Of a stretch of DNA of 64,000 bases, positions 4,205-54,010 are shown in pieces. A model generated the notes under the pieces. The model made no database searches. It was not told the DNA's origin and was given only the letters and a program-made list of their open reading frames with translations. The stretch lies in contig CAZXZO010000007.1 of NCBI GenBank assembly GCA_964645485.1, positions 441 to 64,440 on the forward strand, written 5' to 3'. Within the stretch, counting starts at the first letter, position 1. The number at the start of each line of letters is the position of its first letter. Both the position numbers and the translations under genes were made by a program. Origin of the DNA: an uncultured Candidatus Poseidoniales archaeon (GTDB taxonomy: Archaea > Thermoplasmatota > Poseidoniia > Poseidoniales > Thalassarchaeaceae).

Positions 4205-7200
4205 ATGAAAATATGGGGAGTGGCCATGAGAAAGCAAAGAAGGTCTGCGGTCTTTACATCACTTTTGATGTTGTCATCCATCCTGACTGTTGGATTGGCA
4301 GCAGGATTAGATGGAGATAATGATGGAATTGATGACGCCGTTGATGATTGTCCATACGCCTGGGGCAATAGCAGTATAGATTTCACAGGTTGCCCAGATT
4401 CTGATGGGGATGGAAATCCCGATACAGTCGGTGCATGGGAAGGTGATTGGACAGAATCTAGCAGGTCACTATACGACAATTCTGGTTCATCTAGAGCCAT
4501 AGCGTGGGCATCCGACTCAGTTCACCTAGTCGGTAGCGGTGGAGGAAATGTAATCCTTTACAATGGCGCAGGTGCTAAAATATCTACACTGGTGTCGATT
4601 AGTGAAAACGTCAGAAGTTTAGATTTCACTGCAAACGACTCCTATCTGGCTGTTAGCGGATATTACGATAATTCTCAGAACCATGCATGGGTTCTGGTTT
4701 TAGAAATGGATTGGCCAACAAAAACCGCAACTGTAATCCAAAATCTAAGTTCCCAACATTCAGGTGACGTCTTTGCAGTCGAATGGTCAAATAATGGGGA
4801 CTATCTCTACACCGCTGGTGCTGATAACCTAATCAGAAAATTCGCCACGAATAATTGGACATTGGTTGATAGTTATAGCCGGTTAGACCAAATTTACAAC
4901 ATTGCAATTAGTCCAGATGACCGATTAATAGCAAGTGTGCATGGTTACGAAGTCTCCGTGTTTTGGACAAGTAATGGTACTGTATTTTTTAATCATGTAA
5001 ATCATTCTGGAATTACTCTCGCAGTAGCATTTAGTCCAGACGGTAAATGGGTGGTGACAGGTTCAGATGATACTTGGATTCATGTCTACAACACAACTAG
5101 TGGGAACCGACACACAGGTTGGGATGCTGGTTCTAGGGATATTAATCAAATTTCATTTGACCCAACTGGAAGCTTTTTTGTAGTTGCAAATGATGGTTAT
5201 AGTGGATATGTTTACCAAACAAGTGATTGGACCTACATCGATAATTTTGGGAGTTTTGGCACCTCTAACCAAAATCGCGGAACAAGGGCAGTGGAGTGGT
5301 CTCCTGATGGTTTGAAGATTGGTTTCGGCCAAAATAGAGGTAGGACAGCGGTTTACATTTTACCGGAGGGCCATCATCAACTGAAAGGCGATGTCACATC
5401 ACAATTGATGCTCAACCGTTGGAGATACAACTATCTGATGGAAGGTAAGCCATTATCACAAGAAAACCAAACAACCTCACAAATGACTCAAAATCTATGT
5501 AATGGGGAGGACATCATAGGTGCTAATTATTCGTTCAAAGAGAACCTTGCTAATCCCTTTGCAAATTATTCAACTTCCGGGCTGTTAGACTGCACATCCA
5601 CAAATAGAGAATTGTTAGAAGTTCCAATCGGCAGAATGCCTGCATCTTTCTTTGTTAAATCAGGTGGTCAGGCAGAAGCTTGTCTAAAGAGAATTGGAGG
5701 GCTGTCAATGGCCCAATTGAGGTATTTGGTTTCAGATGCTAGTGTTTCAACATTGGCTCAACCTGGATGGGCACCCGGTATGATCTGGGCGAGCATCGTT
5801 CCAAACGACGACTCTGACGGCGTGAAGGAATGGAGTGATTTCGACTCCTCCTGTCCTCAAGAAGGAATACACGTTTACCAAAGATGGGATAACCGTTCAG
5901 TTCCGATGATGATTGGGCGTCTCCTGACTTGTGCAGGTTGTCAATTTGAAGAGGATTTCTTTTCTAGTACGAGTTCACGCTACAGATTCACTGAACAAAC
6001 AAGGAGTGACATACTTTACGCAGTATCTCAAAATGATGAATCAATTGGATTTACCGAAATGAGGGCTGCAGAAAATTATTCTGGAATTTGGATAGTGCCT
6101 ATCGCTGATAATTGGACGCATAGTGCAAAAGACCACATCGCTGCCGGCGGAGTCACAATTTCACCCTCATTTGACAACAGTTCTAACGGAACTTATCCTG
6201 TACAATCCGACTACAACTTCATTCTGAACCGCGCTCAACAAGATGATCGGATGATGTTGATGAATTGGATGTTAAGTGATGCTGGTCAGAATGAGTGGGA
6301 TAGTATGGGTTTTGTCCGACTTGGGATTCTCGCAAGAGTAGATGCTTGGGCCAGATTGGGTGTTGATGCAACCGCTCTTCTCCCAGATACTGATGGTGAT
6401 GAAATATGGGATGGTGACGATGACTGTCCTGGTACTTGGACTGGATGGCAAGTTGATGCTGTGGGTTGTGCCCAACACCAAATTGATTCCGATGGTGACG
6501 GATACTACAATCATGAAGATGATTGTGTAAACGTTAGTGGTTCATCACTATGGCCAGAACTAGGTTGTATCGATTCAGACGGTGATGGCTGGACCAATTC
6601 TTCAGATAGTTTCCCATCCGACTTTAGTCAATGGGCTGACAATGATAGTGATGGTTATGGGGATAATTTATCGGGGTTGAATGCGGATGATTGCCCTCTT
6701 TTCGCTGGTAATTCTACCAATGATAGACTTGGTTGTGCAGACACTGACGGTGATGGTTGGTCAGATGAAGATGGCGATTGGAGCCTAACTGATGGCGCTG
6801 ACCACTTTCCTAATGATGCCACTCAATGGCGAGATAGTGATGGTGATGGATACGGTGACAATTACTCATTCACTATTGATGAATCTGGTTTGAGAATTCA
6901 AAATGGAGACGCGTTTGATGATGACATCACTCAATGGTCTGACCGCGATGGAGATGGCTTTGGCGACAATGGTATTGGCCAAGCGAGTGACGACTGTCCA
7001 GATGCTGCCGGAACCTCAATGGTTGACAGCGTAGGCTGCCCTGATGATGATGGCGATGGTTACTCAAATACTGCTGATATGTTTCCCAATGAGGTGACAC
7101 AATGGTTCGACACCGATGCCGATGGTTATGGTGATAATTGGGCAGGCGCTAATCCTGACCAATGTGTTGAGACACCATCATTTGAAGTGCCTTACGTTAA

Positions 7201-8147: not shown

Positions 8148-8996
8148 ATGGGAATTGCGAAGATAGCGGTATTAGGTGCCGGCCAAATGGGCAATGGGAT
8201 TGCTCAGGTTGCTGCATGCGCGGGGTATCAAGTAGTTATGATAGACATAAAACAAGATTTTGTTGATAGAGGATTGGAAAGTATTGAGAACTCACTTGCG
8301 AAGTTAGTTTCAAAGCAACGAATGACACAAGAACAGGCAGATTCAGCCCGGGCAAATATTTCAATTTCTACAGACAAAAATTCTGCGGCAGATGTAGACC
8401 TTGTAGTAGAGGCGATTCCAGAAATCCCAGACCTGAAATTCTCAACATTTGAAGAATTAGATAATATCTGTAAACCAGAAACAATTCTTGCAAGCAATAC
8501 TAGCAGTATCAGCATAGATGAGATTGCGGCTGCAACCAGCCGCCCAAACAAAGTCATCGGAATGCATTTCATGAATCCGGTACCAATTATGAAATTGGTG
8601 GAAGTTATCACAGGTTCAAAAACAGATGAAGAAGTATCTTCTTTGGTGGTAGAAGCAGCTGAAAGAATGGGCAAAATTGCATTGTGTTGTAAAGATTCAC
8701 CGGGATTCATCTCAAACAGATTGTTATGCCCGATGCTAAATGAAGCAGTTCTAACTCTTCAAGAAGGGATTGCTGAGCCTGAGGCAATTGATGGAATTAT
8801 GAAATTAGGAATGAACCACCCTATCGGGCCACTTGCCCTATGTGATTTGATTGGGCTTGACACAGTTCTTCACATTATGACAGTACTTCATGAGGGGTTC
8901 GGGGATGACAAATATGCTCCCGCCGATTTGCTAAAACAAATGGTAGAGCAAGGAAAACTTGGTCGTAAAAGTGGTGAAGGATTCTACTCCTATTAA
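8148..8996 (+). CDS. hbd: 3-hydroxybutyryl-CoA / 3-hydroxyacyl-CoA dehydrogenase (NAD-binding)
   Basis: N-terminal Rossmann KIAVLGAGQMGNGIAQVAA; NTSSISI; GMHFMNPVPIMKLVEV; PGFISNRLL; GMNHPIGPLALCDLIGLD; length 282 aa. Confidence 0.92.
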   Translation: MGIAKIAVLGAGQMGNGIAQVAACAGYQVVMIDIKQDFVDRGLESIENSLAKLVSKQRMTQEQADSARANISISTDKNSAADVDLVVEAIPEIPDLKFSTFEELDNICKPETILASNTSSISIDEIAAATSRPNKVIGMHFMNPVPIMKLVEVITGSKTDEEVSSLVVEAAERMGKIALCCKDSPGFISNRLLCPMLNEAVLTLQEGIAEPEAIDGIMKLGMNHPIGPLALCDLIGLDTVLHIMTVLHEGFGDDKYAPADLLKQMVEQGKLGRKSGEGFYSY

Positions 8997-39095: not shown

Positions 39096-39167
39096 ACTGA
39101 CTCAATTAGTCATTTAATATGCAACGGTTATAGATGATGGGCCGGTCGGCCGGCTCGGAGAAGAAAC

Positions 39168-39872
39168 ATGAGTAATAGTGGCGCCTCGGATGGGCGCACT
39201 TTGGCTGCATCCGGCAGCCTGGTGATACCCGGCGATAAAATTAGTTCTGATACAAGTGGCCAACTTGGTCACGGAGTCATTAAAGTGAATGATGAATTGA
39301 TAGCAACCAAACTTGGTTACTTGGTTGAAAAGTCGGGTGAAGTTTCAATTCTTCCAGTACATACGGCTTACTTTCCTAGACCTGGTGATTTAGTGGTCGG
39401 GTACATTGAAGGCATGAGATCTAATATTTGGTTTATTGACCTAAATGCCCCATTCAATGCTATTCTTCCTATGAGTCTCGCTCCAATGAAGATTGAATAC
39501 GGCGGAACTCGAGATGCAATGGATGTAGGAACTACAATTTTGTGTCGCGTTCAGGAAGTAGATGAAGCCCACTCTTCAGTTGTAACAATGAAGGGAATGG
39601 GATTGAGGAAAGTTAATTCTGGATTCGTTGATACAATCCCTCCTCATCTAGTGGGTACAATTTCGAGTGGTTCAAATGCAATCATCCAGCAACTCAAAGA
39701 TGCAAGTAATTGCAGAATAATCTTAGGTGCAAATGGCAGAATTTGGGTTGATGGAGAACCTGAAGGCATTCGAATAGTGCGAGATGCATTAGCATACGCA
39801 CGTGATAATCAACATTCAACTGAATTGGCAGCTGGTATTGCTAGCCAATTAGCAAACGGAAATGGAGAGTGA
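39168..39872 (+). CDS. rrp4: Exosome complex RNA-binding subunit Rrp4 (S1 + KH)
   Basis: PGDLVVGYIEGMRSNIWFIDLNAPFNAILP (S1), a KH-like C-terminal half, and its position before rrp41. Confidence 0.9.
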   Translation: MSNSGASDGRTLAASGSLVIPGDKISSDTSGQLGHGVIKVNDELIATKLGYLVEKSGEVSILPVHTAYFPRPGDLVVGYIEGMRSNIWFIDLNAPFNAILPMSLAPMKIEYGGTRDAMDVGTTILCRVQEVDEAHSSVVTMKGMGLRKVNSGFVDTIPPHLVGTISSGSNAIIQQLKDASNCRIILGANGRIWVDGEPEGIRIVRDALAYARDNQHSTELAAGIASQLANGNGE

Positions 39873-45325: not shown

Positions 45326-46591
45326 CTATAGTACTGATGTGAATGGCTTCTTGTCTCTGCCAAATGGGATGGTTGCATCATAACCAATTTTTGAGGTCAA
45401 TCCATCATCTGTTCTAGTTGGATCGAGGCTACTGCCTCGCTGGTTGCTTAGAATTACTGTGTCTTTGTCCGGTTGCCATCTTGTCATCAACGCCCACTCA
45501 ACTCTTATCGGGTCTGCTGGATTAATATCGGTATCAACTATAGTTACCGCTTTCATAGAGGGGTGGCCTTCAAACGCGGCCATAATCGCATTGTTTGCAT
45601 CTTCGCTAGATTGAGGTTCTATCTGAACAACTGCTGCAAGCCACCCTGAGCCTCCTGAAGTCATAACAACATCTCGGCAATCACAAACTTTGGAAACACT
45701 TGAGAAAATTGTCGGTGCGCGTGGGAGACCCATTAGTGCATGATGTTCTGCTAATCCCGGTAGTATTGCATGAAAAATAGGGTTGTCCCTGTGGTGAATG
45801 GAGTGCACTTCTATGACTGGTTGTTTTCGAACGTCATCAATTGTGCCCGTTATATCGATGTATGGACCTTCATCATCGTCTTCACTAGTGATTGATGCAC
45901 ACATAGCGTATTCAGCATCTGCAGGTACAGTTACACCATTTTCTAACGAGATAACTTCCATTGGTTTGCCGTAGAATTTTTGATATAAGGAAGAAGCCAC
46001 AGTAAGTTCATCAATTGGTTCATTGAATGACATTGCGGCTGCTAACAGCAGACAAGGGTCTGCTCCATTTACTATAGCAATATCAACAGAATCACCCTTC
46101 TCTCTGGCTTCATCAACCATTGTTCTGAGGTGCCTTGGCACTAATCTGGCTACCAGATGATTTTCATCTCGGACAAATTGGCGGTGGAAAGAAACATTGC
46201 GTATTCCATCATATTCTGCTATGATAATACTAGCCGACATGTATCGCCCTCTATCTTGTGGGTAATGATGCGGGATTGGTAGTTTCCTCAAGTCCACAGG
46301 CTCGATGGAATTCTCCATCACTGGGGCCTCTCCTTCACAATTAATTGGGGTAGAACGGTTATCCATTGCCCATTCTAAAGAAGTTAGTAATTGAGCAGGT
46401 TCAATTCCAAATTGTCGGGCCATGTTGTCTCTAAGGCAAACATTTGCCGCGGCTGAATGGCCGTCAACTCCCACGGGATTAGTGAACATTATGGCATCCT
46501 TAGGATTTGATTCGATTGCTAATCTCATCTCGTTAATTGGGTTTGTTTTGTCAAGCGTGACGGCCCCATTGAGATGGTCTCTAAATGCCAT
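45326..46591 (-). CDS. UbiD-family (prenylated-FMN-dependent) decarboxylase
   Basis: 421 aa. LPIPHHYPQDRGRYMSASIIIAEYDGIRNVSFHR, SGGSGWLAAVVQI and INPADPIRVEWALMTRWQPDKD fit the UbiD-family layout. Confidence 0.85.
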   Translation of the reverse strand: MAFRDHLNGAVTLDKTNPINEMRLAIESNPKDAIMFTNPVGVDGHSAAANVCLRDNMARQFGIEPAQLLTSLEWAMDNRSTPINCEGEAPVMENSIEPVDLRKLPIPHHYPQDRGRYMSASIIIAEYDGIRNVSFHRQFVRDENHLVARLVPRHLRTMVDEAREKGDSVDIAIVNGADPCLLLAAAMSFNEPIDELTVASSLYQKFYGKPMEVISLENGVTVPADAEYAMCASITSEDDDEGPYIDITGTIDDVRKQPVIEVHSIHHRDNPIFHAILPGLAEHHALMGLPRAPTIFSSVSKVCDCRDVVMTSGGSGWLAAVVQIEPQSSEDANNAIMAAFEGHPSMKAVTIVDTDINPADPIRVEWALMTRWQPDKDTVILSNQRGSSLDPTRTDDGLTSKIGYDATIPFGRDKKPFTSVL

Positions 46592-46691
46592 TATGACGGC
46601 GACTTAGATACATCGCTTGAAGGTTGGGGGACATCTAATTGAGTAAGGCTGAAATCGGCACCCTGCGCTTATGTCGAATGATTCCTTGCCG

Positions 46692-46741
46692 ATGGCCTCA
46701 TATATGCGGGGTAGGTCGGCGGCTTGCTTCAAGGTGTAATC
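46692..46741 (+). promoter_or_regulatory. S12 promoter/leader: ATGGCCT, TATA-like CATATATG, conserved TAGGTCGGCGGCTT, SD AAGGTG
   Basis: TATA-like box 46699-46706, motif 46712-46725, AAGGTG 46731-46736, ATG 46742. The same ordered elements occur upstream of EF-2. Confidence 0.55.
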
Positions 46742-47170
46742 ATGGGTAGAGGACTCTTTGCAGGTGCGAAAATGAAGCGAGACAGACAGCGATTTCGCTG
46801 GAAGGACCGTGGTTACAAAAAGCGAGTTTTGAAACTCAAACAAAAGTCTGACCCTCTTGGAGGTTCAGCACAAGCCAAAGGCATCGTAATTGAGAAGGTT
46901 GGTATTGAAGCCAAGCAACCTAACTCAGGTATTCGTAAGGCAGTAAAAATTAGTTTAATCCGTACTGGAAACAAGTTGACTGCGTTCGCACCAGGTGATG
47001 GTGCGATCAATTTCATAGATGAACACGATGAAGTCATGGTCGAAGGAATTGGTGGCCGCATGGGTCGTTCATACGGAGATATTCCTGGAGTTCGATTCAA
47101 GGTAATCAAGGTCAATGGCGTTTCACTTAATGAAATGGTTAGAGGCCGTAAAGAGAAGCCAATTCGCTGA
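46742..47170 (+). CDS. rps12: Small-subunit ribosomal protein S12 (uS12)
   Basis: [28 protein letters not shown], and [21 protein letters not shown] 46742 is preceded by AAGGTG. Confidence 0.96.
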
Positions 47171-47179
47171 GGTGGAAAA

Positions 47180-47821
47180 ATGAGTGATGAAGTTGAAGAA
47201 GAAGTTGCAGAAGAACCTGCAGAAGAGAAAATCGTCAACGAAGCACCCATTGCAGGAATTGGTACACTTGTTTTCAACAAATGGGATGCAACTACAGTAT
47301 CATGTGAAGACCCAGGTATTGCACCTTACATCAATCTCAAGACTGTCGGTGTGCCACACACTGGTGGTCGACATGCAAATGCTTGGTTTGGTAAGAGCAA
47401 GTTGTCCATTGTTGAGAGATTTATCAACGGATTGATGAGAACTGGAAAATATACCGGCAAGAAAACCACTGCCACAAAATCCTTCGAGAACGCATTAGAC
47501 CGTATCGCTGCAAGAGATGATACGAACCCTCTACAAGTATTCGTAGATGCAGTAGCAAATTCAGCACCGATGGAAGAGATTACTCGGATTAAATTCGGGG
47601 CAGTTAGTCAGCCAAAGGCTGTTGACAGCGCCCCAATGCGCCGGATTGATGTTGCTATCAGACACTTGGCTACAGGTTCTACTCAAGCAACGCGAAAAAG
47701 TACGAGGACCCTCACTGAAGGAATTGTTACAGAAATTTCCAAAGCAGCCAATGGAGATGTTACGTCCTATGCAATTGGTAAGAAAGAGGAAGTAGAAAGA
47801 ATCGCTGCTTCTGCTCGCTAA
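47180..47821 (+). CDS. rps7: Small-subunit ribosomal protein S7 (uS7) with acidic N-terminal extension
   Basis: FNKWDATTVSCEDPGIAPYINL, and ERFINGLMRTGKYTGKK. The first ~25 residues are mostly Glu (MSDEVEEEVAEEPAEE). Confidence 0.95.
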   Translation: MSDEVEEEVAEEPAEEKIVNEAPIAGIGTLVFNKWDATTVSCEDPGIAPYINLKTVGVPHTGGRHANAWFGKSKLSIVERFINGLMRTGKYTGKKTTATKSFENALDRIAARDDTNPLQVFVDAVANSAPMEEITRIKFGAVSQPKAVDSAPMRRIDVAIRHLATGSTQATRKSTRTLTEGIVTEISKAANGDVTSYAIGKKEEVERIAASAR

Positions 47822-47822
47822 T

Positions 47823-47838
47823 CTTTCCGGATTTTTTT
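47823..47838 (+). terminator. Oligo-T terminator after rps7
   Basis: ctttccggattttttt lies immediately after stop 47819-47821 (T7 run at 47832-47838). Confidence 0.45.
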
Positions 47839-47937
47839 CAAGTCCATGGAATTGCTTTAACTTGGATATTCTATACTTGAAGTTAATAGTGCTAATTCAA
47901 TCACAATAAAATTACTAACAAGAGGTCTAGTGGTTAT

Positions 47938-49095
47938 ATGTCAGATTTAACAGACAATCCTAGTCCAATAAAGTATAATTGGGTAAATGCAGTTTTTCTT
48001 TTTGCAACTCCTATTTTGGCTCTAATTGGAGCAATATGGCACGGTTTTACTTATGGAATCACTTGGGTTGAAATTTGTATATTTTTCTTCTGGTATTTTG
48101 CGTGTGGATTGTCTATAACGGTTGGATATCACAGATTATTCTCCCACCGAAGCCATTCCGCAGTTTTACCTCTTAGAATTCTATATGCTCTGTTTGGGGC
48201 TGGCGCGTTTCAAAACTCAATTTTAGAATGGTGTAGTGATCACAGAAGACACCACAAAGATACGGATAAAGAAGGTGACCCATATAATGCGACAAGAGGT
48301 TTTTGGTGGAGTCATTTCTTTTGGATTATAATTGATGAAGAAGATGGCGAAGTAGACTATTCAAATGTACCAGATTTGCAAAAAGACTGGGTTGTAAGGC
48401 TTCAACATCGTTTTATTTTCACAATCGGATTTCTGGTAGGAATGGTAGCCCCTGCGATAATCGGCTACCTTCTTGGTGGCATTCCAACTGCAATTGGTGG
48501 GTTTGTATGGGGTGGTTTAGTTCGCACCGTTTTTGTCCACCATGGAACATTTTTGATAAATTCAGCAGCACATGTATGGGGTAAACAATCGTACACAACA
48601 AGTAACAGCAGCAAGGATTCTAATTGGCTTGCCTTTTTTACATTCGGAGAAGGGTATCACAATTTTCATCACGCATTCCAAGCTGATTATCGAAACGGAA
48701 TCAGATGGTGGCAGTGGGACCCGTCAAAATGGTGGATTAGGGCTTTCTCACTAGTAAAATTTAATTCCAATCTGAAAAGGACTCCAACTGCATCAATTGA
48801 GACTGCTAAAATGAGAACGTCTTTTTCTAAAATTGCCAATCAATCAGAACAAAACCATAATGAAACTACGATGAATGTTTTTGAATTAAGGAGCAATGAA
48901 TGCATACAGGCTATGCGTGACGCGTTGAGATATCTAGATGAGACGCGGGCGCAATTAAGCCGCTCGAGTTCAAACGCAAGGGACATCATTGTTGAGCAAA
49001 TCACTCAAACGAAAAATAAGATTAATGCAATCAATTTAGAGTTTCAAGCCATTTTAGATGAAATGACGAAACCTTCTCATCAACCATCCGTATAG
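47938..49095 (+). CDS. Membrane acyl-CoA/acyl-lipid delta-9 fatty-acid desaturase
   Basis: Three histidine boxes in canonical order: HRLFSHRS, HRRHHK, GEGYHNFHHAF. Four TM segments. A ~100-aa helical C-terminal extension, 385 aa in total. Confidence 0.9.
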   Translation: MSDLTDNPSPIKYNWVNAVFLFATPILALIGAIWHGFTYGITWVEICIFFFWYFACGLSITVGYHRLFSHRSHSAVLPLRILYALFGAGAFQNSILEWCSDHRRHHKDTDKEGDPYNATRGFWWSHFFWIIIDEEDGEVDYSNVPDLQKDWVVRLQHRFIFTIGFLVGMVAPAIIGYLLGGIPTAIGGFVWGGLVRTVFVHHGTFLINSAAHVWGKQSYTTSNSSKDSNWLAFFTFGEGYHNFHHAFQADYRNGIRWWQWDPSKWWIRAFSLVKFNSNLKRTPTASIETAKMRTSFSKIANQSEQNHNETTMNVFELRSNECIQAMRDALRYLDETRAQLSRSSSNARDIIVEQITQTKNKINAINLEFQAILDEMTKPSHQPSV

Positions 49096-49151
49096 GCTCC
49101 TTGCCCATCAGGAATTGAGGCTCTTGCCCCTTAATATGAATTACAAGGGTG

Positions 49152-49204
49152 GTGGCCTTTATGAACCGATGTTAGGTCGGCCGCTTCACCGAAGGTGAAG
49201 ACTG
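49152..49204 (+). promoter_or_regulatory. EF-2 promoter/leader: GTGGCCT, TATA-like TTTATGAA, conserved TAGGTCGGCCGCTT, SD-sequestering hairpin
   Basis: TATA-like box 49158-49165, motif 49173-49186. Perfect 7-bp hairpin CTTCACC (49184-49190) / GAA loop / GGTGAAG (49194-49200), ATG 49205. Confidence 0.55.
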
Positions 49205-51412
49205 ATGGGACGAAAAGAAGACAACATCGCAAAAGCAACAGAAGTGATGCATGATAGAGACCGTATTCGTAATCTCTGCATTGCTGCTCATATTGACCAC
49301 GGAAAAACAACTCTCTCAGATAATTTGATTGCTGGAGCAGGAATGATGAGTGAAGACCTTGCTGGTAAAAGCAGGGTTTTAGATTTCGATGAGCAAGAAT
49401 CTGCAAGAGGAATTACCATCAATGCAGCGTCTGCCTCTATGGTTCACGCAGTTGAGGGCACAGATTTCCTAATCAATTTGATTGATACACCTGGTCACGT
49501 AGATTTCGGTGGCGACGTAACTCGAGCAATGCGCGCAGTAGATGGATGTTTCATCTTAACTTGTGCAGTTGAAGGAGCAATGCCACAAACAGAAACTGTG
49601 GTGCGCCAAGCCTTGAAAGAAAAGGTGAAGCCAGTTCTATTCATTAACAAGGTTGACCGTTTAATAAACGAATTACAAGTAACTCCTGAGGATATGCAAG
49701 AGAGATTCATGGATCAGATTACCAAAGTAAACAAATTAATTCGCCAATTTGCTCCTGATGAATACAAGAAATCTTGGCAAGTCAGTGTTTCAGATGGCAC
49801 AGTTGCTTTCGGATCTGCTTACCACAACTGGGGTATTACTGTACCATATATGCAGAAATCTGGTATTTCGTTCAAGGATATCTTTGATTATTGTAATAAT
49901 GAAGAGCAAAGAGAATTATCCAAGAAAGCACCAGTACACGAGGTTCTCTTAGACATGGCAGTTACTCAATTACCAAGTCCAGTGGTTGCACAACCATACC
50001 GTATTCCTAATATTTGGTCTGGGGATTCCGATTCAGAGATGGGTCAAGCAATGATAAACTGTGACCCAGATGGTCCTCTTGCGCTCATGATTACTAAGAT
50101 TTGGATGGACCCTCATGCTGGAGAAGTAGCTGTTGGCCGTCTTTATTCTGGAACTATTAACCACGGAGAGAGTTTGTGGGCTATTGGGGGAAGTAAAGCA
50201 GAGCGAGTACAACAGGTTAGCATGATGGTTGGTGGAGACCGCATCTCAATTCCAAAAATCGTTGCAGGAAATATAGCCGCATTAACTGGTATTCGTTCCG
50301 CTGCAGCCGGTGTTACCGTTGCGAGGGATAAGGATATCATTCCTTTCGAAGCAATCAGGCATTATTCAGAACCAGTAGTTACAGTCGCTGTAGAGCCTAA
50401 ATCAATGAAAGACCTACCAAAATTCATTGATGCACTTCGTTCACTTGCAAAAGCAGATGCTTCCCTACAAGTTACAACCAATGCTGAAACCGGTGAGGCA
50501 TTGCTTGCTGGAATGGGTGAACTTCACCTTGAAATTACAACTTACAGAATTGAAGAAGAACAGGGAATCAAAGTCTCCGTTTCTGAACCAATTGTGGTAT
50601 ATCGAGAAACAACTGCAGGCAACAACCATGGGCGACCTTTCGAAGGTAAATCACCTAATCGCCACAATAGATTTTACATTGAAGTTGAACAACTTCCAAT
50701 TGAAGTTGTAGATGCTCTGCGCCAAGGAGATATCGGTTCAGGTACTATTCGGCCAAATGACGCAAAAGAAATTGGCAGGAAATTCGCTGAATACGGCATG
50801 GACAAAGATTTGATGCGCAAAACTTACGCTATCAATGGTACTAATGTTTTGGTCAATGATACTAAGGGTATTCAATACCTCCACGAAACAAAAGAATTGC
50901 TAATCGAAGCTTTCAATGAAGTATGCAAAAAAGGACCTATTGCTGAAGAACCACTAATGAGTGTCATGGTCAAACTCAAAGATGCAAAACTCCACGAAGA
51001 TGCTATCCACCGTGGCCCTGCTCAAACAATTCCAGCAATGAGAAATGCCATCAAGGGTGCTCTAGTAAGGGCTAATACTGCTCTAATGGAGCCTATGCAA
51101 AAAATGCATGTTTCCGTACCTAATGACTGGTTAGGTGGAGTCACAAGAGAAATTACTCAACGCCGTGGAGAAATAGAAGACATGCCATCTGATGGTGAAA
51201 TCACCACAGTTATTGGAAAAGTTCCAGTTGCAGAAACATTTGGTTTCTCAAACGATATTCGGGCTGCAAGTCAGGGTAGAGCGGTATGGAATTCTGAAAA
51301 TTGTGGATTCGAAGAATTGCCAAGATCACTTCTAGAGAAAGTAGTTGGAGAGATTCGTCAGCGAAAGGGTATGAAACCTGAAATCCCAGGTGAATCATAT
51401 TATTCTGATTGA
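49205..51412 (+). CDS. fusA: Elongation factor 2 (aEF-2)
   Basis: AHIDHGKTTLSD, DTPGHVDF, NKVDR, and the diphthamide-site context HEDAIHRGPAQ. Confidence 0.98.
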   Translation: MGRKEDNIAKATEVMHDRDRIRNLCIAAHIDHGKTTLSDNLIAGAGMMSEDLAGKSRVLDFDEQESARGITINAASASMVHAVEGTDFLINLIDTPGHVDFGGDVTRAMRAVDGCFILTCAVEGAMPQTETVVRQALKEKVKPVLFINKVDRLINELQVTPEDMQERFMDQITKVNKLIRQFAPDEYKKSWQVSVSDGTVAFGSAYHNWGITVPYMQKSGISFKDIFDYCNNEEQRELSKKAPVHEVLLDMAVTQLPSPVVAQPYRIPNIWSGDSDSEMGQAMINCDPDGPLALMITKIWMDPHAGEVAVGRLYSGTINHGESLWAIGGSKAERVQQVSMMVGGDRISIPKIVAGNIAALTGIRSAAAGVTVARDKDIIPFEAIRHYSEPVVTVAVEPKSMKDLPKFIDALRSLAKADASLQVTTNAETGEALLAGMGELHLEITTYRIEEEQGIKVSVSEPIVVYRETTAGNNHGRPFEGKSPNRHNRFYIEVEQLPIEVVDALRQGDIGSGTIRPNDAKEIGRKFAEYGMDKDLMRKTYAINGTNVLVNDTKGIQYLHETKELLIEAFNEVCKKGPIAEEPLMSVMVKLKDAKLHEDAIHRGPAQTIPAMRNAIKGALVRANTALMEPMQKMHVSVPNDWLGGVTREITQRRGEIEDMPSDGEITTVIGKVPVAETFGFSNDIRAASQGRAVWNSENCGFEELPRSLLEKVVGEIRQRKGMKPEIPGESYYSD

Positions 51413-51446
51413 GTAGTTAAAAATTAAACTATAAAATAGTCATTGA

Positions 51447-53135
51447 CTATGAAATCCTAATGAGTTGCCAGTCTGTTAATTGTCTGAGAATTGACAATGC
51501 AGGTGAATCGGGTAATTTGTCTAAACATGAATGGGCTAATTGATGGTATTCCATCGCTCTATCCTTTGCATAAGAGATAGAACCAGAAGCCTGTAATTCA
51601 CAAAGAACTTCATCAAGTGTATCTCGAGGAGTTTCCTCATTTCGAGATGCAAACACCTCGTTGAATGTTGGTAACTCACTTGGCTCTAAACTTAATGCAT
51701 GAATTGCAATCAGAGTTCTCTTTCCTTCTACAACATCGCTGCAGGCTGGCTTGCCTAATGTCTCACTATCGCCGGTAGCATCGATTAAATCATCCATTAA
51801 TTGGAAGCAAAGACCGAGGTTTTCGCCCCAATTAGCCAGATTCTCAATTACATCTGCCTTTGCACCAGAAAGTATAGCACCTGTTCGTGCGCAAGTTGTG
51901 AACATAGCAGCGGTTTTTCCCGAGATCATAGCCAAGTATTCTTCTTCACTCACATAATCTCTGTTTTCAAAATCCATGTCTAGTTGTTGGCCTTCTGAGA
52001 CCTTACGAACCATTTTCCCGATTATTGAAACTAAAGAACGGAAATCCTCAGATGAGATTTCATCTGCTTCACTCAAGATCTCAAAGGAGACTGCCAACAT
52101 TGCGTCACCAGCGTTGATTGCTGTAGGCATATCATATGCAATGTGGACCGCTTCTCTGCCTCTTCTCAATTCATCATTATCCATTATGTCATCATGTACT
52201 AGAGTGAAATTATGAATGATTTCTATTGCAGCACCTAGGTCATACAATGAATCAGAAGAGCCGCCACATGCATCTGCTACCAACCATGGTAATATTGCCC
52301 GGAGTCGCTTCCCTCCACCTTCAATTAGGTGCATCATGGCATTTTTCAGACGTTCATGGTTTGATTTGTCTAATGCTGTAATTATCCTACTTTCTACTTC
52401 CGAAGCATGGTCTTTTAATGCCTCGAGTAAAGTAGAATCAGCGCTAGAAACAACATCTCCAATGTGATGTACCACATTTTCTTGAAGAGAACTTACTTCA
52501 TCAAGGTGACCCCACCAGTTGGAGGCGAACCTTGTATAAATCTCATAGAACCAAGGGGCAATAATTTCGCCGTTTTCTGGCGAATTGGTGATTAAATCTT
52601 CTAATTGTGATTGGTTTACCCAGCGGACTTCAGATATTTCATTGGGATTAATGTGTAATTCTACATCAGCGCGAATTAACAGAATATGGTCTAATTCATG
52701 TTCGATCCATTTTTCGTCTGCTCTTGCTCTATAATGCATCCTGGTTATTAGATGAAAATTCTCAATCGGTAATTGTTCAGAAGTGATTCCAAGTTCTTGT
52801 TCCATCTTACGAATTGCAGCACGTTTGACTCCGAGGTCATCTTCCATTTCAGTTTCGCCTTCAATGTCAAGGGGGTGGCTGCAACAAGAGTTTGCCCACA
52901 CTGATGGAAATGTAATCTTAGTATCTGCTCGTTTTTGGATTAACATCTCATTTGAGGAGTTGAACATTAAGATACTGAAAGCGCGATGAAGAGTTCCTTC
53001 TCCGAGGTGACTATCTACTTTTGACATTGAGCCGATTTGACAATCATTTTCATCAACTAAGATTACCATTTCTTTCATCATTTCACTTTGTTCTTCATCA
53101 TATTCAGCGCCAAGGAATGGACTGTTCTCGCTCAT
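51447..53135 (-). CDS. Fusion protein: type-1 (Nudix) isopentenyl-diphosphate isomerase + trans-polyprenyl (geranylgeranyl) diphosphate synthase
   Basis: N-terminal half: HRAFSILMFN, FPSVWANSCCSHP, AAIRKMEQELGI (IDI-1). C-terminal half: first Asp-rich motif LVHDDIMDNDELRRG, second FQLMDDLID. One uninterrupted frame. ATG 53135 chosen (the ORF-track GTG is at 53147). Confidence 0.88.
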   Translation of the reverse strand: MSENSPFLGAEYDEEQSEMMKEMVILVDENDCQIGSMSKVDSHLGEGTLHRAFSILMFNSSNEMLIQKRADTKITFPSVWANSCCSHPLDIEGETEMEDDLGVKRAAIRKMEQELGITSEQLPIENFHLITRMHYRARADEKWIEHELDHILLIRADVELHINPNEISEVRWVNQSQLEDLITNSPENGEIIAPWFYEIYTRFASNWWGHLDEVSSLQENVVHHIGDVVSSADSTLLEALKDHASEVESRIITALDKSNHERLKNAMMHLIEGGGKRLRAILPWLVADACGGSSDSLYDLGAAIEIIHNFTLVHDDIMDNDELRRGREAVHIAYDMPTAINAGDAMLAVSFEILSEADEISSEDFRSLVSIIGKMVRKVSEGQQLDMDFENRDYVSEEEYLAMISGKTAAMFTTCARTGAILSGAKADVIENLANWGENLGLCFQLMDDLIDATGDSETLGKPACSDVVEGKRTLIAIHALSLEPSELPTFNEVFASRNEETPRDTLDEVLCELQASGSISYAKDRAMEYHQLAHSCLDKLPDSPALSILRQLTDWQLIRIS

Positions 53136-53194
53136 TGCCTCACCCACTATCTTATCTGAGGGGTTTTGCCTCTATAATGAGATGGTATAATCTC

Positions 53195-54010
53195 CTATGG
53201 AGATTCAGGAATTATCCTCGTTCCTAATGTTGTACCATCTGTTACGAGTTCTACAATTCGTTCTGGATGTTCACCGTCAATAATCCAAACATTAGGTACA
53301 TGGGCAGAAATTTTTCCCCCAACACTTAATTTCAGATAAATGCCTCCAGTAACATCAATTTCGGATTTATGTACACCTTCAAATGGTTGGTTGGGTGACC
53401 ACTCAGGAATTAGTTTTGCAGTAGAATCAGTGGGTGGTGAAGACATCAATCCTGGTGCACCTCCCATTGCAAAAAGCATATGGCTCGCTTCTAGTTCTAT
53501 GGCCAGTCTATAGCAAATGTCATCGCCGCTTAAAATACCAAATTCTCTATCATCAGAACATTCGACAACATCTCCATATGTAATGTGAACTAATTCACCA
53601 TTTAAGTTGAAACGATGTAAATCTCCCACAAATTCCTTACCTGTTCCTACAGCCCATTCATGTGGTGGGTGTGAGGATGTAGAAATTCCTAACTTTTGTA
53701 GTTCAATAGAAACTAATTGATTCAGATTTAACATATCCCTTCTCACTGATTGGATAGCCTCATCTTGGGAACTTAGACTATTAGTTGTAGGTAAATCTTC
53801 GTTAATTCTTCCTTTGTGTAGTTTCCAAGTTTTAGCTTTCAGGTGACCATAACTTCCAGCGCCATGAACAATGATTACGCGTAAATTCAATTGGGTTAGT
53901 TGCTCAACTATTTTTGCTAAGTTTCGGATTACATCAATTTTTGGGGTACACAAGTTCTCTTTTTCTGTGATTAACCCGCCGCCAAATTTGATGATGACGG
54001 GCCCTTCCAT
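53195..54010 (-). CDS. ipk: Isopentenyl phosphate kinase (amino-acid-kinase fold)
   Basis: VIIKFGGGLITEK, IIVHGAGSYGH, ILSGDDICYRLA, IDVTGGI. ATG 54010 chosen (the ORF-track TTG is at 54016). Confidence 0.85.
   Translation of the reverse strand: MEGPVIIKFGGGLITEKENLCTPKIDVIRNLAKIVEQLTQLNLRVIIVHGAGSYGHLKAKTWKLHKGRINEDLPTTNSLSSQDEAIQSVRRDMLNLNQLVSIELQKLGISTSSHPPHEWAVGTGKEFVGDLHRFNLNGELVHITYGDVVECSDDREFGILSGDDICYRLAIELEASHMLFAMGGAPGLMSSPPTDSTAKLIPEWSPNQPFEGVHKSEIDVTGGIYLKLSVGGKISAHVPNVWIIDGEHPERIVELVTDGTTLGTRIIPESP

What the first reader, a model, noticed from the sequence alone, without database searches (positions are those of the whole stretch)
47822..49204. Bacterial-type delta-9 fatty-acid desaturase inserted as its own transcription unit between rps7 and EF-2
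In archaea, S12, S7 and EF-2 are normally contiguous in the str-type operon. Here a 385-aa membrane desaturase with the three canonical His boxes (HRLFSHRS, HRRHHK, HNFHHAF) sits between S7 and EF-2.
- A T7 terminator lies directly after rps7.
- An AT-rich promoter region (CACAATAAAATTAC) precedes the desaturase.
- EF-2 has a separate promoter that copies the S12 promoter layout.
- The gene looks more AT-rich by eye than its flanks.
Archaeal membranes are isoprenoid-based, so an acyl-chain desaturase is unexpected. With hbd at 8148, it fits earlier comparative-genomic proposals, as I recall them, that some planktonic Euryarchaeota carry bacterial-like fatty-acid lipid genes. The size and C-terminal helical extension resemble proteobacterial DesA-type enzymes acting on lipid-bound acyl chains.
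Basis: partly seen in the sequence, partly recalled or inferred. Interest (0 to 1): 0.62.

Follow-up and report, generated by a model that had tools for sequence, protein, structure and literature searches.

The report
Old acyl desaturase gene between S7 and EF-2
A marine Group II archaeon (Poseidoniales) carries a stearoyl-CoA-desaturase-type membrane enzyme between ribosomal protein S7 and EF-2; the gene is real, but it is an old, vertically inherited, repeatedly lost feature of this order, not a recent bacterial insertion.

Summary
ORF 47938-49095 (+) encodes a 385-aa membrane desaturase with all three His boxes, lying between rps7 and EF-2. A T7 run follows rps7, and EF-2 has its own promoter-like block that matches the S12 one.

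The protein is SCD-type. PDB SCD1 gives E 2e-42, and the predicted fold matches SCD1 with TM 0.81-0.85. All ten metal-site residues and the kink residues are kept. It is not a DesA equivalog (58 bits against a cutoff of 400).

The "insertion" reading is largely wrong:
- Among 80 Poseidoniales species loci, S7-desaturase-EF-2 occurs in 25, in both families.
- The desaturase tree mirrors the flanking-gene tree (r = 0.81).
- One empty locus (L044) still holds the last codons of the gene, so that lineage lost it by deletion.
- GC3 and synonymous codon use are native. The low GC comes from first codon positions.
- dN/dS is about 0.05-0.07.

The named non-archaeal relatives are all bacterial, so an ancient bacterial origin is plausible.

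Most likely function: an O2-dependent delta-9 desaturase making monounsaturated acyl chains. This fits published proposals of bacterial-like lipids in this group. The substrate carrier and electron donor are unknown.

Verdict: a new member of a known kind, of moderate interest.

The parts
46697..46741 (+). S12 promoter-like block and leader: GGCCTCATATATGC (TATA-like), TAGGTCGGCGGCTT, then AAGGTG (Shine-Dalgarno-like) before the ATG at 46742
   Evidence: The block is conserved upstream of S12 in about 70 Poseidoniales loci.
46742..47170 (+). rps12 (S12). The ATG at 46742 is the likely start; the ORF tool's TTG at 46724 lies inside the leader motif.
   Evidence: Pfam PF00164, E 5e-43. Called homologues are 142 aa.
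47180..47821 (+). rps7 (S7)
   Evidence: NCBIfam NF003106, 234.9 bits against a cutoff of 225.
47832..47838 (+). T7 run, a candidate archaeal oligo-T termination signal after rps7
   Evidence: It is the longest T run in 46500-51600. The S12, S7 and EF-2 coding regions contain no run of T5 or longer.
47876..47919 (+). Conserved upstream block of the desaturase: CTTGAAGTTAATAGTGCTAAT (candidate BRE/TATA or regulator site), followed by the less conserved ACAATAAAATTACTAAC
   Evidence: CCTTGAAGTTAATAG[T/G]G..AAT is conserved in the window clade (L012, L014, L016, L017). A related block, CCCAATAGTCAATAG, occurs in Poseidoniaceae, including the relocated copy L001; the motif is found in 11 of 21 upstreams, against a background of 0.03 per 100 nt.
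47938..49095 (+). SCD-type membrane acyl desaturase, 385 aa. It has 4 TM helices (15-39, 43-69, 160-180, 182-208). The di-iron ligands are H65, H70, H102, H105, H106, N208, H212, H241, H244 and H245. A C-terminal three-helix extension spans 284-377.
49148..49204 (+). EF-2 promoter-like block and leader: GGCCTTTATGAACC (TATA-like), TAGGTCGGCCGCTT, then AAGGTG before the ATG
   Evidence: It is present upstream of EF-2 in all loci, whether the slot holds the desaturase, another gene or nothing.
49205..51412 (+). Archaeal elongation factor 2
   Evidence: TIGR00490, 1058 bits.

Best explanation
The gene encodes a functional, O2-dependent, di-iron membrane acyl desaturase of the stearoyl-CoA-desaturase (SCD/OLE1, COG1398-like) type. 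It most likely introduces a cis-delta-9 double bond into C16-C18 saturated acyl chains.

History (inferred). An ancestor of Poseidoniales (Marine Group II) acquired it once, probably from Bacteria. It settled in the spacer between two pre-existing transcription units, S12-S7 and EF-2. It has since been inherited vertically, with repeated deletion or relocation.

Expression in this Thalassarchaeaceae genome (inferred). The gene is probably expressed from its own promoter downstream of an oligo-T stop after rps7. EF-2 is driven by its own S12-like promoter, so the insert has no polar cost.

Role (inferred). The likely role is to supply monounsaturated acyl chains, from imported or self-made fatty acids, for ester lipids on the G3P backbone that this order is predicted to make. 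This would tune membrane fluidity in cold, oxic seawater.

Shown here: protein family, fold, intact active site, purifying selection, native composition, and the synteny pattern.
Inferred: regiospecificity, substrate carrier (CoA or lipid), electron donor, promoter use and lipid destination.
For: Identity:
- PF00487, E 4e-17.
- PDB SCD1 4ymk/4zyo, E 2e-42 over residues 8-288.
- AF2 model with pLDDT 94 and pTM 0.88. Foldseek finds only SCD1 (E 3e-17, TMt 0.81-0.85, rmsd 2.6-2.9 A).
- All ten SCD1 metal-site residues are invariant in 47 sequences. The kink residues Q147/W153/T261 correspond to Q92/W98/T204 and are kept (SCD1 numbering from PMC8533217).

Selection and composition:
- dN/dS is 0.05-0.07 against close relatives.
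- GC3 and synonymous codon likelihood lie within the window distribution.

History:
- 25 of 80 GTDB Poseidoniales species loci have S7-DES-EF-2, in at least 5 separate clades of both families.
- The DES tree mirrors the flanking-gene tree. Pairwise distances correlate with Pearson 0.81 and Spearman 0.71 over 300 pairs.
- All MGII desaturases form one clade among 1.8 billion representatives.
- L044 keeps the last ~8 codons and the stop of DES in an otherwise empty spacer.
- The relocated copy (L001-L004) nests inside the Poseidoniaceae DES clade and keeps the same upstream motif.

Transcription layout.

Lipid context: MGII lack G1PDH, have G3PDH and fatty-acid genes (PMC6461757; PMC7852524). 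hbd is present in the window.
Against: - No expression data could be obtained.
- No electron-donor gene (cytochrome b5, ferredoxin or flavoprotein reductase) is adjacent. The nearest ferredoxin is 23 kb away.
- The loop that aligns with SCD1 R188/K189 is acidic in 17 of 21 MGII sequences (IIDEEDGEVD) but K/R in 16 of 26 bacterial ones. As I recall, that loop contacts the CoA phosphates. If so, acyl-CoA may not be the substrate.
- No oligo-T follows the desaturase, so it may read through toward EF-2.
- In L005 and L018 the S7-DES spacer is only 37-39 nt, so there the gene is probably co-transcribed with S12-S7.
- The trees are neighbour-joining on few genes, without bootstrap. Deep nodes and the root are uncertain.
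- About 47 of 80 species lack the gene at this site, so it is dispensable or relocated in many lineages.
Confidence: 0.72

Rival explanations
1. The desaturase is a recent horizontal insertion of a bacterial gene into the str-type operon of this particular lineage, as its own foreign transcription unit.
For: - Total GC is 1.8 sd below the window mean.
- The nearest sister group, L019-L022, has an empty slot.
- The protein family is otherwise bacterial.
Against: - GC3 (0.325 against 0.335 +/- 0.033) and synonymous codon likelihood (-1.016 against -1.055 +/- 0.044) are native.
- The same arrangement occurs in both Poseidoniales families with DES only 49-57% identical, tracking the flank divergence.
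- The MGII desaturases are monophyletic.
- L044 carries a deletion scar.
Confidence: 0.05
2. It is an acyl-lipid rather than an acyl-CoA desaturase. It would desaturate acyl chains already esterified to membrane glycerolipids, like cyanobacterial DesC or Pseudomonas DesA in function. It would act in situ as a homeoviscous adaptation enzyme.
For: - Charge inversion in the loop aligned with SCD1 R188/K189. It is D/E in 17 of 21 MGII sequences and K/R in 16 of 26 bacterial homologues.
- SCD1 R155 corresponds to Ser in all MGII sequences.
- The extra C-terminal three-helix unit is absent from SCD1.
Against: - The DesA equivalog model scores only 58 bits against a cutoff of 400.
- The best sequence and fold matches are to the acyl-CoA enzymes.
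- The role of R155/R188/K189 in CoA binding is recalled from memory and was not verified here.
- MGII proteomes may be acidic in general, which would explain the acidic loop.
Confidence: 0.2
3. The enzyme serves fatty-acid catabolism, detoxification or signalling rather than membrane building. It would convert imported saturated fatty acids for handling alongside beta-oxidation, or make a non-membrane unsaturated product.
For: - Relocated copies lie a few kb from acyl-CoA dehydrogenase and 3-hydroxyacyl-CoA dehydrogenase genes (L001-L004). L092 has a similar neighbourhood.
- MGII are described as fatty-acid degraders (PMC6461757, PMC9723583).
- hbd is present in the window.
Against: - Beta-oxidation of saturated acyl-CoA needs no delta-9 desaturation. 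Desaturation would add auxiliary steps.
- No known catabolic pathway uses an SCD-type enzyme (from established knowledge).
- The neighbouring genes are not in operon-like contact with the desaturase.
Confidence: 0.1
4. It is a non-acyl member of the membrane di-iron superfamily, such as a carotenoid ketolase or hydroxylase, an alkane hydroxylase or a sphingolipid desaturase.
For: PF00487 is a broad family, and the Pfam score itself is modest at 63 bits.
Against: - The specific match to SCD1 is 149 bits, E 2e-42, over 280 residues.
- The fold search finds only SCD1.
- The SCD-specific NSAAH motif (Asn and His ligands) and the kink residues are conserved.
Confidence: 0.03

Closest known systems
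Mammalian stearoyl-CoA desaturase 1 (SCD1; PDB 4YMK, 6WF2, 4ZYO)
   Same: - About 30% identity over residues 8-288, with the same fold (TMt 0.81-0.85).
- Four TM helices.
- Nine His and one Asn at the metal site.
- Kink residues Q/W/T conserved.
   Different: - No N-terminal regulatory extension.
- An extra C-terminal three-helix unit (284-377).
- An acidic instead of basic loop after W129.
- No cytochrome b5 / b5-reductase system is known in this organism.
Bacterial ~380-aa SCD-like 'acyl-CoA / fatty acid desaturases' (annotated in Bdellovibrionota, Oligoflexia, Bacteriovoracia, 'Deltaproteobacteria', Thermoanaerobaculia and Elusimicrobiota MAGs). Functionally characterised relatives of this type, from memory, are P. 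aeruginosa DesB and M. tuberculosis DesA3.
   Same: - The same length.
- 35-48% identity.
- Several cases align through the C-terminal extension, to about residue 370.
   Different: - The MGII proteins form their own clade.
- The acidic loop.
- No adjacent oxidoreductase gene. DesB-DesC and DesA3-Rv3230c are paired with one (from memory, not tested here).
Archaeal str-type gene row S12-S7-EF-2
   Same: The order S12, S7, EF-2 and their orientation are kept. 47 of 80 Poseidoniales loci have S7 and EF-2 only 77-304 nt apart.
   Different: In Poseidoniales, EF-2 always carries its own promoter-like block. The spacer acts as a slot that holds the desaturase (25 loci), a GGACT/AIG2-like gene (5 loci) or nothing.

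Membership tests
SCD / OLE1-type delta-9 acyl desaturase (membrane di-iron 'first desaturase') | Three His boxes (HxxxxH, HxxHH, HxxHH) plus the NSAAH Asn/His ligands | tested here: met
   H65, H70, H102, H105, H106, N208, H212, H241, H244 and H245 are invariant in 47 sequences. They align with SCD1 H120, H125, H157, H160, H161, N265, H269, H298, H301 and H302.
SCD / OLE1-type delta-9 acyl desaturase (membrane di-iron 'first desaturase') | SCD fold: four TM helices with a cytosolic cap that holds the metal centre | tested here: met
   AF2 pLDDT 94.1. Foldseek against SCD1 gives E 3e-17, TMt 0.81-0.85 and rmsd 2.6-2.9 A, with no other significant hit.
SCD / OLE1-type delta-9 acyl desaturase (membrane di-iron 'first desaturase') | Residues that kink the acyl chain at C9-C10 (human Q147, W153, T261) | tested here: met
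   Q92 is Q in 18 of 21 MGII sequences and E in 3. W98 and T204 are invariant. Residue roles are from PMC8533217.
SCD / OLE1-type delta-9 acyl desaturase (membrane di-iron 'first desaturase') | Acyl-CoA as substrate, with basic CoA-contact residues | tested here: inconclusive
   The loop aligned with R188/K189 is D/E in 17 of 21 MGII sequences. The role of these residues is recalled from memory only.
SCD / OLE1-type delta-9 acyl desaturase (membrane di-iron 'first desaturase') | Delta-9 desaturase activity with O2 and an electron donor | not testable with these tools
   This needs heterologous expression and fatty-acid profiling.
DesA family fatty acid desaturase (NCBIfam NF049918 equivalog) | Whole-protein score at or above the curated cutoff of 400 bits | tested here: not met
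   58.4 bits, E 6.6e-16.
Recently transferred (foreign) gene | Atypical GC3 or codon usage, patchy presence limited to one shallow lineage, and a gene tree that disagrees with the host tree | tested here: not met
   GC3 is -0.3 sd and codon likelihood +0.9 sd from the window mean. The gene is present in both families. The trees are congruent, r = 0.81.
Independent archaeal transcription unit | Upstream terminator, own BRE/TATA promoter, own terminator, and a mapped transcription start | tested here: inconclusive
   A T7 run follows S7 and a conserved upstream block is present. No downstream oligo-T was found. No RNA data were available. The spacer is only 37-39 nt in L005 and L018.

The most novel reading that the evidence does not exclude
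Poseidoniales have kept, since before their two families split, an oxygen-dependent acyl desaturase whose CoA-contact loop has turned acidic. On this reading it acts on ester-bound acyl chains of their own membrane glycerolipids. That would be a direct enzymatic sign that these abundant ocean archaea build and tune bacterial-type unsaturated fatty-acyl membranes alongside isoprenoid ethers.
Probability: 0.2. Interest if true: 0.75.

Novelty: new member of a known kind. Interest (0 to 1): 0.4.

Why it matters
Marine Group II archaea are among the most abundant surface-ocean archaea and are uncultured. [quoted passage not shown]

A conserved, selected SCD-type desaturase adds a concrete, testable enzyme to that 'mixed membrane' idea. 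One does not desaturate acyl chains merely to burn them. In the papers searched here, nothing was found that discusses this gene.

The synteny result also corrects a tempting misreading. Position inside a ribosomal gene row together with low GC does not mean recent transfer. The S7|EF-2 spacer in this order is a boundary between two promoters that tolerates cargo.

Tried and rejected
- Metatranscriptome support. Only three RNA runs, from a study holding a relative, were offered. Their contigs matched only short conserved GTPase and r-protein stretches, so they say nothing about the desaturase.
- Naming the nearest non-MGII relatives by cluster look-up. Of 20 clusters, only 2 carried taxon names. 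A profile search gave more names, all bacterial.
- The taxon of the sister sequence P0121/P0271 (L092) could not be named. Its neighbouring acyl-CoA dehydrogenase is 69% identical to the MGIIa one, so it is probably a related archaeon.
- The sigma-70 promoter and hairpin-terminator scan gave counts no higher than in shuffled sequence, and it is not appropriate for archaea.
- The SCD1 structure papers (Bai 2015, Wang 2015) are not held. The CoA-contact residue roles therefore remain from memory.
- Rejected ideas: recent HGT, DesA equivalog, a non-acyl hydroxylase, and CACAATAAAATTAC as the conserved promoter element.

Full report
**What is there.**
The window region 46.7-51.4 kb reads, all on the + strand:
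- S12 (46742-47170)
- S7 (47180-47821)
- a 116-nt spacer
- a 385-aa ORF (47938-49095)
- a 109-nt spacer
- aEF-2 (49205-51412)

A T7 run sits 11 nt after the S7 stop, at 47832-47838. It is the longest T run in 46500-51600. The exact 14-mer TAGGTCGGC[G/C]GCTT occurs in the window only upstream of S12 and of EF-2. In both places it lies behind a TATA-like box and ahead of an AAGGTG ribosome-binding motif.

**Whose genome it is.**
EF-2 is 96-98% identical to that of MAGs titled Candidatus Thalassarchaeaceae / Poseidoniales. The rest of the window holds ordinary archaeal housekeeping genes: proteasome alpha, exosome subunits, L37ae, SRP54, aIF5A and diphthamide synthase. The organism is therefore a Marine Group IIb archaeon.

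**What the protein is.**
- Pfam gives FA_desaturase, E 4e-17.
- The PDB sequence search gives mouse and human SCD1 at E 2e-42 over residues 8-288.
- An AlphaFold model built on 47 homologues is confident: pLDDT 94.1, pTM 0.88.
- Foldseek finds SCD1 and nothing else significant: E 3e-17, TMt 0.81-0.85, rmsd 2.6-2.9 A.
- The ten metal-site residues (H65, H70, H102, H105, H106, N208, H212, H241, H244, H245) are invariant across MGII and bacterial homologues. They align with SCD1 H120, H125, H157, H160, H161, N265, H269, H298, H301 and H302 (numbering from PMC8533217).
- The residues that hold the C9-C10 kink in SCD1 (Q147, W153, T261; PMC8533217) correspond to Q92, W98 and T204 and are kept.
- The NCBIfam DesA equivalog is not met: 58 bits against a cutoff of 400.
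- Residues 284-377 form three confident helices that are absent from SCD1. Many ~380-aa homologues share them, and several align through to about residue 370.

**A possible difference from SCD1.**
The loop after W129 reads IIDEEDGEVD. SCD1 has VRKHPAVKEKG at the aligned position. The residue aligned with R188 is D/E in 17 of 21 MGII sequences and K/R in 16 of 26 bacterial ones. I recall that R188/K189 contact the CoA phosphates, but I could not verify this because the structure papers are not held. The carrier, CoA or lipid, is therefore open.

**Is it a recent insertion? No.**
I fetched the EF-2 locus from 80 GTDB species representatives of Poseidoniales and located S12, S7, the desaturase, EF-2 and the two outer neighbours in each.

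1. The frame UbiD-like(-) | S12 S7 [slot] EF-2 | IDI-GGPPS(-) is conserved throughout.
2. The slot holds the desaturase in 25 loci. It holds a two-domain GGACT/AIG2-like gene in 5 loci. It holds nothing in 47 loci (spacer 77-304 nt). Three contigs are too short to tell.
3. On a neighbour-joining tree of the five flanking proteins, slot-desaturase loci fall in at least five separate clades on both sides of the midpoint root. These include records titled Thalassarchaeaceae and Poseidoniaceae.
4. The desaturase tree reproduces that branching. Pairwise desaturase distances correlate with flank distances: Pearson 0.81, Spearman 0.71, 300 pairs.
5. In an exhaustive search of 1.8 billion representatives, all MGII desaturases fall in one clade.
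6. L044 is nested inside a desaturase-bearing clade and has an 'empty' spacer. That spacer still contains the last ~8 codons and the stop codon of the desaturase, followed by the normal downstream sequence. This is a deletion scar.
7. A copy found elsewhere in the genome (L001-L004, next to a GNAT gene and a few kb from an acyl-CoA dehydrogenase) nests inside the Poseidoniaceae desaturase clade. It keeps the same upstream motif, ACCCCAATAGTCAATAG. It therefore relocated together with its control region.

**Composition and selection.**
Total GC is low: 0.392 against 0.425 +/- 0.018 for 47 window genes. That comes from first codon positions (GC1 0.439). GC3 is 0.325 against 0.335 +/- 0.033. A leave-one-out synonymous-codon likelihood is -1.016 against -1.055 +/- 0.044. 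Both are typical of the window. dN/dS against four relatives is 0.05-0.07, although dS is near saturation. That criterion is largely met, except that conservation is patchy because of losses.

**Origin.**
Outside MGII, the closest sequences that carry taxon names are all bacterial: Bacteriovoracia, 'Deltaproteobacteria', Thermoanaerobaculia, Elusimicrobiota, Bdellovibrionaceae/-ales and Oligoflexia. The immediate sister, P0121/P0271, lies on a contig whose acyl-CoA dehydrogenase is 69% identical to an MGIIa one. It is probably another related archaeon. An ancient bacterium-to-archaeon transfer is the simplest reading. The trees here cannot date or root it.

**Transcription layout (inferred).**
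- Every Poseidoniales locus has a conserved block about 45 nt upstream of EF-2, whatever the slot holds. It consists of a TATA-like TTTATGAAC or CTTAAGAACCCC, then AGGTCG or AGTGG, then GGTG, then ATG.
- S12 has a matching block.
- So S7|EF-2 is a boundary between two promoters across the whole order. This explains why the spacer tolerates cargo.
- The desaturase has its own clade-conserved upstream block. In this clade it is CCTTGAAGTTAATAG[T/G]G..AAT at 47876-47896.
- The S12, S7 and EF-2 coding regions contain no run of T5 or longer, while the desaturase has nine. This is consistent with oligo-T acting as a termination signal here, with modest desaturase expression, and with EF-2 depending on its own promoter.
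- No oligo-T follows the desaturase.
- In L005 and L018 the S7-desaturase spacer is only 37-39 nt, so co-transcription with S12-S7 is likely there.
- No RNA data could be brought to bear.

**Function.**
The best-supported reading is an O2-dependent delta-9 desaturase that makes monounsaturated C16-C18 acyl chains. [quoted passage not shown] 2017). A desaturase is not needed for beta-oxidation. Its retention under purifying selection therefore fits a supply of unsaturated acyl chains to membrane lipids. The electron donor is unknown. Nothing suitable is adjacent, and a 2x[4Fe-4S] ferredoxin lies 23 kb away.

**Novelty.**
Public annotations already call these proteins 'acyl-CoA desaturase' or 'fatty acid desaturase' in Poseidoniales MAGs. 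I found no paper in the held library that discusses them. The protein is a new member of a known family. The added value lies in three things: the order-wide, ancestral S7|EF-2 slot; the evidence for vertical descent with loss; and the acidic CoA-site loop as a lead. Interest is moderate.

Noticed in passing
L045, L046, L054, L058, L068 (between S7 and EF-2; e.g. L045 about 5018-6000): In one Poseidoniaceae clade the same S7|EF-2 slot holds a different gene. It is a ~280-aa two-domain GGACT/AIG2-like gamma-glutamyl cyclotransferase family protein (Pfam PF06094, E 6e-31; PF13772). The spacer is a recurrent cargo site.
   Followed up: partly
window 46712-46725 and 49173-49186; weaker copy about 39140-39160: The exact 14-mer TAGGTCGGC[G/C]GCTT lies downstream of TATA-like boxes before S12 and EF-2 and is conserved across Poseidoniales loci. 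A looser GGCCGGTCGGCCGGCT precedes the exosome-subunit gene at 39168. It may be a shared initiator or leader element of translation-related genes.
   Followed up: partly
window 45326-46591 (-), 51447-53147 (-), 53195-54010 (-): Isoprenoid-pathway-type genes bracket the S12-S7-desaturase-EF-2 row. They are a UbiD-family decarboxylase, an IDI(NUDIX)-GGPP synthase fusion of 566 aa, and an amino-acid-kinase-family (isopentenyl-phosphate-kinase-like) gene. This frame is conserved in nearly all 80 loci. The fusion gene is inverted in L066, L077 and L079.
   Followed up: partly
window 47938-49095 versus 46742-47821 and 49205-51412: There are nine runs of T5 or longer inside the desaturase coding region and none in the S12, S7 or EF-2 coding regions. 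This suggests selection against oligo-T in the highly expressed translation genes.
   Followed up: no
L044 1835-1965: Deletion scar. The S7-EF-2 spacer retains the last ~8 codons and the stop codon of the desaturase (aagcaagcaaagactgctgcaTAA), followed by the usual downstream sequence.
   Followed up: yes
L066 and L090 (record titles): Records titled 'Deltaproteobacteria bacterium AH-558-G13' and 'Yoonia sp. YZ14D_8.59' carry typical Poseidoniales UbiD-S12-S7-EF-2 loci (EF-2 82-83% identical). The contigs are probably mis-binned or contaminant.
   Followed up: no
L092 (GCA_964389655.1, contig CAYMED010000014.1) 6001-7158: This is the closest desaturase outside the MGII clade (48% identity, 385 aa). 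It sits next to a PPIase gene and an ABC-2 transporter, with a PAP2 phosphatase and an acyl-CoA dehydrogenase that is 69% identical to the MGIIa one. The organism is not identified.
   Followed up: partly
window 46500-51600 in run X4 (marine metagenome): Contig depth is about 22-35x over S12, S7 and EF-2, from a diverged relative, but about 4-5x over the desaturase. Co-occurring related populations therefore differ here, and the more abundant one matches the window only in the conserved genes.
   Followed up: no
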